64,000 bases of DNA from an uncultured delta proteobacterium. Lineage in GTDB: Bacteria > Myxococcota_A > Polyangia > Polyangiales > Polyangiaceae. The notes beneath the pieces were generated by a model. That model did not search any database and had not been told where the DNA came from. It worked only from the letters and a program-made list of their open reading frames with translations. Location: positions 3,360,001-3,424,000 of the forward strand of contig CAWAIF010000003.1 of the NCBI GenBank assembly GCA_963782055.1, written 5' to 3'. The position numbers and the translations under genes are program-made. Positions 1 through 3,287 of the stretch are shown here, piece by piece. Numbering within the stretch: position 1 is the first letter of the stretch; each line of letters opens with the position of its first letter.

Positions 1-407
1 GTGGTGTCGGCGGTCTGGCCCTGCGTCGCGGCGTGGAGGTCCCACGTCCCGGGCATGAACAGGTCCACGTCGGTAGCCACGTAGCGGCCGGAGCCGAGCG
101 CGGTGACCGTGGGAACCACCGACGTGCCGTGGCCCATCGTCGGCATCCACGGCGTGACGGTCATGGTGAGGCCATCCACCGGTTGCGAGCTCGCGGCGTC
201 CTGCACGGTGAGCTCCACCGCGTTGACGCCGCGCACGATGCCGGTGTCCTGGGCGCGCAGGGTGAGCTGCAGCGCCCCGGAGTCGCTCGTCGCGCTGTCC
301 AGCGCAGCCGGCGCGAAGCGCAGGCTCGCCGGATTGGCCGTGGTCGGTCCGGACGAGGCGCACGCGACGGCGCCGAGCAGCATGGCGCCTGCCAGCCAGG
401 GTCTCAC
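1..407 (-). CDS. YtkA/FixH-like lipoprotein, 3' end beyond the window
   Basis: Read manually. GTG at 407 overlaps the upstream stop (GTGA). N-terminus MRPWLAGAMLLGAVAC is a lipobox. Contains PWMPTMGHGTS and VDLFMPGTWDL motifs typical of YtkA-like Ig-fold proteins. Confidence 0.75.
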   Translation of the reverse strand, partial: MRPWLAGAMLLGAVACASSGPTTANPASLRFAPAALDSATSDSGALQLTLRAQDTGIVRGVNAVELTVQDAASSQPVDGLTMTVTPWMPTMGHGTSVVPTVTALGSGRYVATDVDLFMPGTWDLHAATQGQTADT

Positions 408-1027
408 GGGACGCTCACGTAGAACGCCGCGTGGCCGTGAGGCGAGTCCTCGGTGTCCGTGCACTCCTCGCGGAAGTGGAAGCGCACCGTCCACTGCCCC
501 GGCTTGTCGAAGCGGATGGGCCCGACGGTGTAGACGCCGGGGGAGGTCTCCGTCGCGTGCGGCGAGGAGTTGGGCGCCGGGTGGGTGTCGTTGAGGAACA
601 CCTCCAGGTCCGGGTTGGCGTCGGTGAGCGGCGTGCCGTCCACCTTGGTCGTGGCGGTGACGGTGAAGGTCACGTCGGCGTTCTCGCAGACGGGGCTGGA
701 CGACCACTTCACGTGGTACTTGCAGTCGTCGTCGTCGCCCTCCTGGTTGAACATGGTATCGCCGTAGTCCCCCGTCGCGCCGGCGTCGGGATCGGCCGCG
801 CCGGCGTCGGCGGTGCAGGCCGCGGGGTCGACGGTCACGACGATCGGCCCGGCGTCGCCGCTGCAGTGGGTGTCGGCGGCGCCGGAGACCGGGCCTCCGG
901 GGGTGGAGCAACTGGCGTTGTCGCTGGACGTGGAGCACGCGGCGATGACGACGGCGAGCGCGGCGATCGCGCCCGCGGTCCGGATGGAACCTCGAGACGA
1001 AGACAACGAATGGACGTGTACGGACAT
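404..1027 (-). CDS. YtkA-like lipoprotein with a His/Cys-rich C-terminus
   Basis: ATG at 1027 with a GGAGG RBS. Lipobox AVVIAAC. Motifs PGVYTVGPIRFDKPGQWTVRFH and C-terminal ECTDTEDSPHGHAAFYV. Confidence 0.75.
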   Translation of the reverse strand: MSVHVHSLSSSRGSIRTAGAIAALAVVIAACSTSSDNASCSTPGGPVSGAADTHCSGDAGPIVVTVDPAACTADAGAADPDAGATGDYGDTMFNQEGDDDDCKYHVKWSSSPVCENADVTFTVTATTKVDGTPLTDANPDLEVFLNDTHPAPNSSPHATETSPGVYTVGPIRFDKPGQWTVRFHFREECTDTEDSPHGHAAFYVSVP

Positions 1028-1083
1028 GCAGGCCTCCTGCAGACGTGGGAACGTGCGCGCGGACCCCCACCGCGCGAGGTGGA
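1026..1083 (-). promoter_or_regulatory. Intergenic stem-loops that sequester the RBS and start codon of the 404-1027 gene
   Basis: Minus strand reads TGA-TCCACCT-CGCGCGG(TGGGGGT)CCGCGCG-C-ACGT(TCCC)ACGT-C-TGCAGG(AGG)CCTGCA-TG. The last hairpin contains the SD and the A of ATG. Confidence 0.55.
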
Positions 1084-1503
1084 TCACGCCGCGAGGGCTC
1101 GAGGAGGCGGGGTGGGCGGCTCGTCCGGACCGCGGGAGCGAAGGGGCAACGGCTGCGGCGCGCGCGTCACCGTGACCACGCGCGGGAGGGGAGCCAGCTC
1201 GGCGGTGAGCCCGGCGGGGCTGCACGTCGGCAGCGCGGGGGCCGGCGCGGGCGGGTCGGTGTCGCAGGTGGAGTGGATGACCGGGTAGGGCGTGGCGCGC
1301 CGCTCCAGCAGGCGCTCGTGCGCCAGAGCCTCGCACTCCGGGCAGTGGCACTCCCCCATCTTCATCCCGCACATGCAGTGATGCTCCTGCACGCCACCCA
1401 GCGCGCGGATCACCGGCATCGTCGCGGGGCCCAGCCACACGGGCGCCAGTACCACGAGCAAGCAGCAGAGCTTGACCACGGCGTGCACCGCAGCCCTGGA
1501 CAT
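1084..1503 (-). CDS. Cys/His-rich exported leader protein with a Pro-rich C-terminus (DUF2946/CutF/CruR-like)
   Basis: Hydrophobic N-terminus, HHCMCGMKMGECHCPEC metal motif, C-terminal RSRGPDEPPTPPPRALAA. Lies directly upstream of the YtkA-like genes. Confidence 0.6.
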   Translation of the reverse strand: MSRAAVHAVVKLCCLLVVLAPVWLGPATMPVIRALGGVQEHHCMCGMKMGECHCPECEALAHERLLERRATPYPVIHSTCDTDPPAPAPALPTCSPAGLTAELAPLPRVVTVTRAPQPLPLRSRGPDEPPTPPPRALAA

Positions 1504-1546
1504 CCTGCGCGGTCTCGCGGAGAGGGCCCGCGCCACCACCGACCGC

Positions 1547-1580
1547 GCGTCGGATTGCAAGGACCCTTGCAATGCGACGC
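1547..1580. promoter_or_regulatory. Palindromic candidate operator
   Basis: GCGTCGGATTGCAAG-GACC-CTTGCAATGCGACGC, a 14/15 bp inverted repeat with an AT-richer core, about 44 bp upstream of the 1503 start. Confidence 0.55.
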
Positions 1581-1780
1581 CAGGCCGCGGGAAACGGCCA
1601 CGGACCACGCCATCCGACCCTGGCCGAAGGCCGGGCGACGGCTGCAGAGGCGCGCAGAGGAAGGGCCGCCAGGGCATCACGGCTCCTCTGCTATAGATGC
1701 GGGTCGCGCCCGGGGCAAGTCGGCTCATGTGGACTTCCCGCGCGCGATCCCTTATTTCAAGGGCCCCAGAGGACACCCCG

Positions 1781-2008: not shown

Positions 2009-2057
2009 CCTCACCCTCCGCCCCTCTCTCCACTGCCTGGAGAGGGGGAGGAGAAGG
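2009..2057. repeat. REP-like palindromic element, copy A
   Basis: cctcaccctccgcccctctctccactgcctggagagggggaggagaagg forms a hairpin CTCTCCA/TGGAGAG. Near-identical to 15489-15537. Sits at a convergent gene junction. Confidence 0.6.
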
Positions 2058-2892
2058 AGGCGAGGAGGGTGCGGTAGGCGGGCTCGGCTTCGGGGAGGCC
2101 GATGGCCACCAGACCCGGGACCACGTCCTCCTCCATGCCGTCGAAGAAGGCGCGCGCGTAGCCGGCGTCGGTGAGCGTGCCGAAGTTGGGCTCGGGCTGC
2201 GCCTCCGGCTCGCCGCGCGCCCACTCCGGCCCGCGGGTGGCGAGGCACAGGCGTGCAAAGTGGGCGAAGAGGCCCGGCAGCTCGCCGGCGAGGCGATCGC
2301 GCTCGCCAGGGTCCGCCTCACGCATCAGCAGGGCGCCCGCCTCCCAGCCGAACTCGCCGTGGAAGGTCTCGTCGACCAGGATGGCCGACACCACCTCCCG
2401 CGCCAGCGGCACGGTGGCCGCGCGCAGCGCGCGCCGGAACATGCGGCCGCTCAGCGTCTCGCCGATGCAGAAGGCGGCGACGAGCATCTGTCGGACGTGC
2501 TCGCGCAGCGAGGCGCCGGCCACCTCGTGGTGGAGGGCGTCGGCGTCGACCTCCGGCGCGGCGGGTCGGCCGAAGGCCTCGCACATGCGCATGCACAGAT
2601 CCGTGTGGCGGACCTCGTCGGCGATCATCCGGGCGAAGGCGCCGGACCAGTCGAGCGGCGCGCCGAGGAGCTGCACGTGGGCCGCCAGCTCGGTGAAGAG
2701 GGTCAGCGAGTGGAGCTCCTGCACCGCCCGCGTGCGCCAGAGGAGCGCGGCGTCGTCGAGCGCGTGGGCGTCGTAGCCCGCCGGATCGAACGCCTCGAAG
2801 TGGACCTCGCCCCGGCGCGGTCGCACCAGGAGCTCGTGCTCCTCGGTCAGCGCGAGGTCCTCGCCGCTGCTGCGGCGCAGCGTGAAGGTCAC
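2011..2892 (-). CDS. Ferritin-like diiron-carboxylate protein
   Basis: Paired E...ExxH motifs: QELHS, DEVRH, CIGETLS, DETFH. GTG start at 2892 is inferred. Confidence 0.8.
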   Translation of the reverse strand: MTFTLRRSSGEDLALTEEHELLVRPRRGEVHFEAFDPAGYDAHALDDAALLWRTRAVQELHSLTLFTELAAHVQLLGAPLDWSGAFARMIADEVRHTDLCMRMCEAFGRPAAPEVDADALHHEVAGASLREHVRQMLVAAFCIGETLSGRMFRRALRAATVPLAREVVSAILVDETFHGEFGWEAGALLMREADPGERDRLAGELPGLFAHFARLCLATRGPEWARGEPEAQPEPNFGTLTDAGYARAFFDGMEEDVVPGLVAIGLPEAEPAYRTLLASFSSPSPGSGERGGG

Positions 2893-2905
2893 GGCGCCTT
2901 GCGCG

Positions 2906-3223
2906 CTACCGGGGGAGGCCCCTGGGCGGGGCGTTGATGATGCGCGGGCGGAAGCTCGGCGGGCCGCTCGGCGCGGGCGCCGCGCTGGCGGAGCCGGACG
3001 GCGCGGCGGACGGGGCCGCGCTGTCCGACGGCGCGGGGGTGGCGGTCGCGTTGGTGTGGACCTGCTCGGTCGGCGCCGGCCCGTTGACGTGCGGCTCGGA
3101 GGTGTCCGGCGCGTTGACGCCCGGCGGGTTGTCCTTGGTGCAGGCCACCGCGAGGGTGCCGATGCCCACGAGCGCCACGCCTCGGGTGAGGGCGGTGAGC
3201 CGTTGGAGTCGATGACGTCGCAT
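2906..3223 (-). CDS. Small low-complexity lipoprotein with repeated xx-N-[AG]-[PT] motifs
   Basis: Lipobox TLAVAC. Motifs GVNAP, HVNGP, HTNAT and IINAP within a Pro/Ala/Ser linker. Confidence 0.65.
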   Translation of the reverse strand: MRRHRLQRLTALTRGVALVGIGTLAVACTKDNPPGVNAPDTSEPHVNGPAPTEQVHTNATATPAPSDSAAPSAAPSGSASAAPAPSGPPSFRPRIINAPPRGLPR

Positions 3224-3287
3224 GCCCGCAGCCTACCCCAAACGGCTCCCCCCGCCATCCCCGCCGCGCTCCGGCCACCGCAAGACC

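What the first reader, a model, noticed from the sequence alone, without database searches (positions are those of the whole stretch)
1..1580. Candidate metal-sensing ribosome-stalling leader system controlling YtkA-like lipoproteins
Seen: four parts in order. (i) A 14/15-bp palindrome upstream. (ii) A 139-aa ORF with a hydrophobic N-terminus, an HHCMCGMKMGECHCPEC cluster and a C-terminal RGPDEPPTPPPR tail. (iii) A ~55-nt spacer where an anti-SD-like TCCACCT follows the stop and a TGCAGG-AGG-CCTGCA hairpin buries the SD and ATG. (iv) Two coupled YtkA-like lipoproteins with Met/His/Cys motifs. Known: Rhodobacter CutF and Bordetella CruR (DUF2946) are exported CxxC leaders with Pro-rich arrest motifs that control downstream copper genes post-transcriptionally. 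Inference: this is a myxobacterial variant with a larger Cys cluster, a PPTPPPR arrest tail, different cargo, and possibly an added transcriptional operator.
Basis: partly seen in the sequence, partly recalled or inferred. Interest (0 to 1): 0.8.

Follow-up and report, generated by a model that had tools for sequence, protein, structure and literature searches.

The report
Proline-stall leader before copper lipoproteins

Summary
The 139-aa leader belongs to an unnamed family (154 clusters at 50% identity, mostly Polyangiaceae) with a hydrophobic N-terminus, HxCxC-x6/8-CxCxxC, a sixth Cys held 48-51 residues before a terminal PPTPPPR (101 of 117), and no DUF2946 hit. It heads operons of YtkA-type lipoproteins (83 of 104), an outer-membrane barrel, CusF, SCO, MbnPH or YcnI. 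The conserved RNA switch is not the one proposed: the anti-Shine-Dalgarno lies in the Pro codons themselves. CCT makes up 44% of them against about 10% in controls, and they pair with the cargo SD in 45 of 84 loci against 10 of 84 after synonymous recoding, with covariation. A stalled ribosome would free the SD. The TCCACCT and the small hairpin are local features. The palindrome is one of 79 copies of a genome-specific repeat, not a leader operator. Verdict: a new variant of the CutF/CruR kind; stalling, metal and polarity are untested. The scan noted similar leaders, one with the same codon-borne anti-SD, in other genomes.

The parts
1084..1503 (-). Leader ORF, 139 aa: signal/anchor, Cys cluster, low-structure linker, PPTPPPR tail
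1438..1494 (-). Hydrophobic N-terminal segment (residues 4-22), putative Sec signal or signal anchor
   Evidence: KD19 2.31; 122 of 125 homologues have KD19 > 1.6; cleavage not predicted (no signal-peptide tool)
1333..1383 (-). His + five-Cys cluster H41-x-C43-x-C45-x6-C52-x-C54-x2-C57, putative metal (Cu) sensor
   Evidence: C43, C45, C54, C57 invariant in 114 aligned sequences; cluster pattern in 135 of 150 hits
1264..1266 (-). Sixth invariant Cys (C80), at a fixed distance before the Pro run
   Evidence: invariant; 48-51 intervening residues in 101 of 117
1099..1119 (-). PPTPPPR putative arrest motif; its PPP-R codons (1110-1099) carry the anti-SD
1028..1083 (-). 56-nt spacer; inner hairpins bring the Pro codons and the SD together; TCCACCT (1083-1077) pairs locally, not with the SD
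1032..1038 (-). Shine-Dalgarno of gene 2 (AGGAGGC), paired with the Pro codons in the free mRNA (P 0.98)
1027..1041 (-).
404..1027 (-). Gene 2: YtkA-type lipoprotein, 207 aa, invariant Cys/His/Asp (DDDCKY, FHF, SPHGH); Ig-like beta-sandwich, nearest solved fold H. pylori CrdA
1..407 (-). Gene 3: YtkA-type lipoprotein, 143 aa, MPxxxHG motif; ends 24 nt beyond the window edge. Followed outside the window by a 304-aa Phenol_MetA_deg-type barrel with a Cys-Cys motif and a 120-aa CusF
1547..1580 (.). Palindrome: core-only copy of a dispersed 36-bp repeat (79 copies); not a conserved part of the leader system

Best explanation
The ORF is a cis-acting, translation-arrest leader of the CutF/CruR kind that sets translation of the copper-trafficking operon behind it. 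Shown in sequence: export-type N-terminus, invariant Cys/His ligands, terminal PPPR, and synonymous codon choice that turns the PPP-R codons into the anti-SD of the next gene. Inferred step 1: when ribosomes run through, the Pro codons pair with the SD and the cargo is off. Inferred step 2: a ribosome paused on PPP covers exactly that strand and frees the SD, so the cargo is on. Inferred step 3: copper (or the disulfide state it alters) on the Cys cluster and C80, which has just left the exit tunnel when PPP is in the active site, decides whether the nascent chain is pulled free. Polarity, least certain, about 55:45: stalling and expression when copper is scarce, release when copper binds, that is CruR's logic with CutF's RNA output.
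For: Family conservation: 154 clusters; PPP in the last 22 residues in 129 of 150, exact PPTPPPR in 68. Ruler: sixth Cys to PPP 48-51 in 101 of 117 while cluster-to-PPP spreads over 66-77; CruR has a conserved, functionally needed 45-residue spacing (PMC9426467). CutF ends in PEPEGPPPRL and needs PPP (preprint 10.1101/2025.02.05.636593). Codons: CCT 129 of 291 in PPP against 10.5% of 1116 leader-body and 6.3% of 1244 cargo Pro codons; CGA 47 of 86 against 11%; own-genome controls CCT 38 of 369 near C-termini, 54 of 498 in internal PPPR, CGA 10 of 166. Pairing: 45 of 84 native against 10 of 84 recoded; SD-opening gain on stalling 3.0 against 0.5 kcal/mol; holds over 59, 33 and 13 similarity clusters. 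Covariation: tail CTCCT goes with SD AGGAG in 15 of 27 against 5 of 55 (p 1e-5), CTCCG with CGGAG in 9 of 16 against 15 of 66 (p 0.014). Cargo: YtkA, CusF, SCO, MbnP/MbnH, YcnI, redoxin, Cu P1B-ATPase, RegB/RegA, TonB receptor, overlapping the published CruR neighbours. B. subtilis YtkA/CtaK serves CuA assembly and is bypassed by added copper (PMC13344008). Language-model neighbours are CzcI, DUF6769, DUF6660 and DUF2946 clusters at 0.92-0.93 (a lead only).
Against: No experiment or expression data. 39 of 84 loci do not reach 0.5 pairing probability (13 of 35 do when the spacer exceeds 100 nt), and stalling opens the SD by more than 1 kcal/mol in only 55 of 84; in some it closes it. Swapping between nearest relatives favours the native pair only 24 to 17 (p 0.02); four of six word pairs tested showed no significant covariation. 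CCT and CGA are rare codons, so slow decoding could also favour them. In the window the SD stays about half paired in the stalled state. The spacing count comes from a profile search that favours similar lengths. On polarity: gene 2's nearest solved fold is the copper-resistance protein CrdA (Z 10.5, rmsd 2.6 A over 102 residues), the operon holds CusF, and the PPPR tail is CutF-like, all of which fit copper-induced expression.
Confidence: 0.7

Rival explanations
1. Same switch with CutF polarity: copper binding in the periplasm induces the stall and turns on a copper-buffering or resistance operon. This is the other polarity inside the 0.7 above; the number given is absolute.
For: PPPR tail and SD-masking stem as in CutF; CrdA is the top fold match of gene 2 in two searches; CusF in this operon; Cu P1B-ATPases in two homologous operons.
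Against: No multicopper oxidase or RND pump among the 32 cargo representatives scanned, which covered the largest cargo clusters and some singletons but not every cluster (flanks mostly 1.5-5 kb); MbnPH, YcnI, SCO and TonB receptors are the set found behind CruR, which is copper-repressed.
Confidence: 0.3
2. The leader is an arrest peptide, but it monitors periplasmic disulfide formation or Sec export rather than a metal; its six Cys form three disulfides that pull the chain free.
For: An even number of conserved Cys; the CutF model itself invokes disulfides; redoxin genes in 18 operons and RegB/RegA as first cargo in three; most first cargo genes are lipoproteins (59 of 84 by a loose lipobox pattern).
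Against: Cargo is dominated by copper-binding families, not Sec or Dsb machinery; CxC pairs with a conserved His suit metal binding, and the spacing resembles the five-Cys one-His Cu(I) motif of fungal Mac1 (C339, C341, C345, C347, C350, H353; PMC6354809).
Confidence: 0.12
3. The RNA pairing gives fixed translational coupling (Pro pausing transiently opens the SD) with no ligand sensing, or the protein is simply an exported metallothionein-like copper chaperone with a Pro tail.
For: Five Cys and a His could bind several Cu(I); two homologues score weakly, below cut-off, to eukaryotic metallothionein; 39 of 84 loci lack strong pairing.
Against: First position in its unit; coil from residue 69 to the end in the model; the fixed Cys-to-PPP distance and the selected anti-SD codons are not needed by a free chaperone.
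Confidence: 0.13
4. The palindrome is a metal-regulator operator that adds transcriptional control to this operon.
For: Strong dyad 44 nt upstream of the ATG; across copies the variable positions do not covary, as in a protein-binding site.
Against: 79 copies in all gene contexts, 45 of them inside a longer element with C-rich and G-rich arms; absent at the other 80 of 81 leader loci and from five congeners; other copper-type genes of the genome lie 7-250 kb from the nearest copy.
Confidence: 0.07

Closest known systems
CutF of Rhodobacter capsulatus (cutFOG; PMC8456105, PMC9973294, preprint 10.1101/2025.02.05.636593)
   Same: Small exported Cys leader, terminal PPPR, first in the operon, stem that hides the next SD, stalling predicted to switch the cargo on.
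   Different: CutF has CxxxC and an anti-SD described in the intergenic stem-loop, and controls a multicopper oxidase. Here there is a His + five-Cys cluster plus a spaced sixth Cys, the anti-SD lies in the Pro codons, and the cargo is YtkA lipoproteins, a barrel and CusF. I did not align to CutF itself.
CruR (Bp2923) of Bordetella pertussis, DUF2946/PF11162 (PMC9426467; arrest shown in PMC12992588)
   Same: Export signal, CxxC, fixed Cys-to-arrest spacing (45 there, about 50 here from the sixth Cys), overlapping cargo families (MbnPH, YcnI, SCO, AhpC/TSA, TonB receptor).
   Different: No PF11162 hit (0 of 11 and 0 of 116); RAPP or RGPP in only 12 of 150 tails; CruR acts through Rho-dependent termination, whereas the signal here is SD masking.
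SecM-type monitoring substrates (PMC7897499, PMC10987492)
   Same: A stalled ribosome disrupts a stem over the downstream SD.
   Different: They monitor Sec/YidC and control export genes; no metal-type Cys cluster; different arrest motifs.
Myxococcales CutF-like entries in Table S3 of PMC8456105
   Same: Same broad class, already catalogued in myxobacteria, including two Sorangium entries.
   Different: All 16 rows lie before RND efflux genes (13) or TonB receptors (3); none lists YtkA.
REP-I/REP-II Cu(I) motifs of fungal Mac1 (PMC6354809)
   Same: Five Cys and one His in CxC...CxCxxC spacing.
   Different: Analogy only: different loop length, His on the other side, a eukaryotic transcription factor; homology not tested.

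Membership tests
DUF2946 / PF11162 (CruR family) | Match to the PF11162 profile | tested here: not met
   0 hits for the leader, 0 of 11, 0 of 116 of the 150 listed homologues; none found in the genome with this profile
DUF2946 / PF11162 (CruR family) | CxxC motif | tested here: met
   C54-x-x-C57, invariant in 114 sequences
DUF2946 / PF11162 (CruR family) | C-terminal RAPP | tested here: not met
   Tail is PPTPPPR; R[AG]PP in the last 22 residues of 12 of 150
DUF2946 / PF11162 (CruR family) | About 45 residues between CxxC and the arrest motif | tested here: not met
   66-77 from CxxC in 112 of 117; the fixed distance (48-51) is from the sixth Cys
DUF2946 / PF11162 (CruR family) | Copper-triggered Rho-dependent termination | not testable with these tools
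   Only a mild C-over-G skew before PPP (mean 0.09), which Pro codons alone could give
CutF-like class (rules of PMC9973294) | Under 150 aa, PP within the last 15 residues, same-strand next gene within 1000 nt | tested here: met
   139 aa, PPP at 132-134, spacer 56 nt; spacers 25-244 nt in 84 loci
CutF-like class (rules of PMC9973294) | N-terminal Sec signal peptide | tested here: inconclusive
   Hydrophobic segment in 122 of 125 and an N-terminal helix in the model; cleavage and export not testable
CutF-like class (rules of PMC9973294) | CxxxC of CutF proper | tested here: not met
   No CxxxC in the leader; the paper allows other Cys/His motifs in the wider class
CutF-like class (rules of PMC9973294) | Stem that hides the downstream SD and is opened by stalling | tested here: met
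   In silico only:
CutF-like class (rules of PMC9973294) | Presence in the published list D of 5,334 proteins | not testable with these tools
   File S1 is not among the three supplements held; in the 2021 list no Myxococcales row has YtkA neighbours
CutF-like class (rules of PMC9973294) | Copper-dependent stalling, cis-only action | not testable with these tools
   Needs toeprinting and reporters
YtkA-like (PF13115), genes 2 and 3 | Profile score above the curated cut-off 25.9 | tested here: met
   33 bits and 40 bits
Dedicated operator (palindrome) | Conserved upstream of homologous operons and confined to a functional regulon | tested here: not met
   1 of 81 loci, the window itself; 79 copies in all contexts
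REP/MITE-like dispersed repeat (palindrome) | Many dispersed palindromic copies, some in tandem, genome-specific | tested here: met
   79 copies against 0 for the reversed pattern; tandem copies 101 nt apart at C3:4235031-4235233; 0 in five congeners
REP/MITE-like dispersed repeat (palindrome) | Cognate Y1/RAYT transposase | tested here: inconclusive
   PF01797 not found in the 97%-complete genome; other transposase families not searched

The most novel reading that the evidence does not exclude
An unnamed, often leaderless-transcribed family of nascent-chain sensors uses a Mac1-like multi-copper thiolate cluster, closed by a sixth Cys set at tunnel length, as a cooperative force switch. The same few codons serve as stall site and anti-SD, so metal loading is read out directly as translation of an undescribed copper-delivery module (YtkA lipoproteins plus a Cys-Cys outer-membrane barrel that may be a TonB-independent copper channel), switched on in copper scarcity: a combination of CruR polarity and CutF output not found in the papers read.
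Probability: 0.3. Interest if true: 0.7.

Novelty: new variant of a known kind. Interest (0 to 1): 0.5.

Why it matters
How copper changes stalling in CutF and CruR, and why in opposite directions, is open. This family offers about a hundred natural variants with three measurable constants: a larger ligand set, a fixed Cys-to-proline distance and an anti-SD inside the stall codons. That lets peptide arrest and RNA masking be separated with silent mutations alone. It also points to a conserved, uncharacterised envelope copper module in Polyangiaceae and gives a rule for finding such leaders where Pfam sees nothing.

Tried and rejected
Pfam, NCBIfam and PDB sequence searches gave nothing for the leader. 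Its model is two helices and coil (pTM 0.40) with no Foldseek match and best Z 2.8; this says nothing about novelty of fold. Rfam over 900-1800 gave one chance-level hit. No RNA holder was listed for window 1-1700, so no reads were laid. The promoter scan found no consensus promoter for the leader; a TTGCCC-17-TATAGC at 1718-1690 was seen by eye only, and the 59-codon in-frame extension behind it looks less coding (GC3 0.81, GC2 0.66) and is absent from homologues, so the ATG at 1503 was kept. TCCACCT as anti-SD, the small hairpin as the switch and the palindrome as operator were rejected. A rule-based scan found no second convincing leader of this design in the genome. The look-up of earlier findings by sequence was blank. 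Literature searches and supplement searches found no description of this family; File S1 of PMC9973294, file 10 of PMC12992588 and the preprint's supplements were not seen and could list members. No complex prediction was run.

Full report
Observation. The unit lies on the minus strand: palindrome 1547-1580, leader 1503-1084 (139 aa), a 56-nt spacer, gene 2 at 1027-404 and gene 3 from 407 across the window edge. Genes 2 and 3 pass the YtkA cut-off.

The leader is a real, unnamed family. A single-sequence search found 7 of 60 relatives, one of them spurious, and 3 further proteins. A profile of 11 sequences found 154 clusters at 50% identity. Of the 150 listed, 135 have CxC-x(5-11)-CxCxxC, 129 have PPP in the last 22 residues and 68 end in exactly PPTPPPR; one hit is a spurious repeat. 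C43, C45, C54, C57, C80 and P133 are invariant in 114 aligned sequences. The family occurs in 62 of 383 genomes of the window's family (the tally includes two unpublished genomes, on which nothing else rests, and three weak matches), in up to four copies. It was not found in 372 genomes of other families in a phylum sample, where only ten candidates per genome were scored. Record titles read Polyangiaceae, Polyangiales and Myxococcales, with one Thermoanaerobaculia locus and one Kofleriaceae protein; the nearest Atlas clusters are unnamed, mostly Acidobacteriota where known. Pfam gave no DUF2946 hit in 11 and 116 proteins.

A ruler. Among 117 hits with both motifs the sixth Cys lies 48-51 residues before PPP in 101, whereas the cluster lies 66-77 residues away in 112. 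The profile search favours similar lengths, but that applies to both distances. In CruR a 45-residue spacing is conserved and needed (PMC9426467, passages). From general knowledge, not a call: about 50 residues places C80 just outside the exit tunnel or in the translocon, and the cluster further out, so the side of the membrane on which sensing happens is open.

The RNA switch. This locus alone is not significant. I collected 111 distinct leader frames; 97 with PPP, an intact stop and a good score went into codon counts, and 84 into folding after dropping 27 without PPP, without a credible start, with short or cut cargo. CCT makes up 129 of 291 PPP codons against 10.5% in leader bodies and 6.3% in cargo; the following Arg is CGA in 47 of 86 against 11%. 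Own-genome controls give 10-11% CCT and 6% CGA. The SD pairs with the tail at P over 0.5 in 45 of 84 loci against 10 of 84 after recoding (mean of four recodings each), and stalling opens it by 3.0 against 0.5 kcal/mol on average. These differences hold over 59, 33 and 13 similarity clusters (p 3e-7, 5e-5, 0.05 for pairing). Native tail-SD duplexes beat swapped ones (-15.4 against -13.6, none of 20,000 permutations as low; kin not independent), more weakly between nearest relatives (24 better, 17 worse, p 0.02). Two of six word pairs covary. Against: 39 of 84 loci lack strong pairing, mostly with long spacers, and rare-codon slowing is not excluded.

Transcription. In 35 of 91 loci a TAnnnT lies 5-7 nt before an in-frame GTG or ATG, against 0 of 84 internal controls, with a peak at 6-7 nt; many leaders therefore look leaderless-transcribed. 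The window locus lacks this. Its palindrome is a core-only copy of a 36-bp repeat with 79 copies (reversed control 0), 45 with long C-rich and G-rich arms. By a crude gene caller 21 copies fall inside called ORFs, 17 between convergent, 30 between tandem and 11 between divergent genes. It is missing at the other 80 of 81 leader loci and in five congeners. It may bind a protein, but it is not this system's operator.

Cargo. Of 107 loci walked, 104 had cargo; 83 hold a YtkA-type gene and 68 start with one. Others are the barrel (45 loci), a His/Cys lipoprotein (22), a CxxCH lipoprotein (24), a redoxin (18), MbnP (5) with MbnH (3), RegB (3) with RegA, SCO and CusF, YcnI (2), Cu P1B-ATPases (2) and a TonB receptor (32 representatives scanned in Pfam). 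This overlaps the CruR neighbours (PMC9426467, section 10). YtkA/CtaK helps build CuA and is bypassed by copper (PMC13344008, passages). The genome has COX2-type domains and EF-P. Gene 2 folds confidently as a beta-sandwich (pLDDT 90) nearest to the copper-resistance protein CrdA, which supports copper but argues for the opposite polarity; hence 55:45.

Comparison. It works like CutF (PPPR, masked SD; PMC9973294 passages; preprint 10.1101/2025.02.05.636593 abstract, introduction and passages) and shares ruler and cargo with CruR, whose arrest has been shown (PMC12992588, passages). It is not a DUF2946 member by profile, tail or spacing, but it meets the testable rules of the wider CutF-like class. 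Myxobacterial members of that class were listed in 2021, none before YtkA (PMC8456105, passages and 16 table rows). SecM-type masking is described in PMC7897499 and PMC10987492 (passages). The Mac1 likeness was recalled, then checked against residue numbers in PMC6354809 (passages). Searches found no account of this family; unseen supplements could list it. Earlier notes of this scan describe comparable leaders in other genomes, one with the anti-SD in the arrest codons; I had reached that reading before the look-up and did not test theirs.

Verdict. A real leader system and a new variant of a known kind. Regulatory arrest leader with copper as ligand about 0.7; polarity open; interest 0.5.

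Noticed in passing
G000, 79 sites, e.g. C3:420495, C3:4235031-4235268, window 1546-1581: A genome-specific element of about 110 bp: 36-bp palindromic core with C-rich and G-rich arms. Some core positions are invariant in both arms while the others vary without covarying, as for a protein-binding site; no Y1 transposase found.
   Followed up: partly
G000 C3:100431-101087, C3:6214801-6215433, about C3:6525186: Three near-identical MarR-like genes (family judged by eye, not scanned) each begin right beside a copy of that element; they may travel with it or bind it.
   Followed up: no
G000 C3:1992888, 2002642 and others; C3:2283754, 4454795 and others: Two further families of near-perfect 32-35 bp palindromes, about 8 and 12 copies in the strict scan.
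   Followed up: no
35 of 91 leader loci, e.g. L040, L043, L044, L047: A -10-like TAnnnT 6-7 nt before the GTG/ATG start suggests leaderless transcription of the leader genes.
   Followed up: partly
L150:5079-5990 (just outside the window) and 45 homologous loci: Phenol_MetA_deg-type outer-membrane barrel with Cys-Cys or CxxC just after the signal in 42 of 45; a candidate TonB-independent copper channel.
   Followed up: partly
L133, L139, L142, L145, L083: Two leaders in one neighbourhood, divergent or convergent, each heading its own operon; in L133 and L139 the first cargo of one is a RegB/RegA pair followed by SCO and CusF, so a leader may control a two-component system.
   Followed up: partly
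L049 (Thermoanaerobaculia contig): A distant leader with a PEPPPPR tail and CCT-rich codons in front of a TonB-dependent receptor, outside Myxococcota.
   Followed up: partly
L033, L158-L165, L169 and others (22 loci): A small His/Cys-rich lipoprotein family without a Pfam match (two members scanned) is the first cargo in 18 loci.
   Followed up: no
window 2011-3258 (-): Ferritin-like protein with weak AurF and rubrerythrin matches below cut-off; the true start is probably downstream of the listed ATG.
   Followed up: no
G000 C3:3589041-3590944: A second YtkA-type gene and a CxxCH lipoprotein lie together elsewhere in the genome with no leader found by the profile.
   Followed up: no
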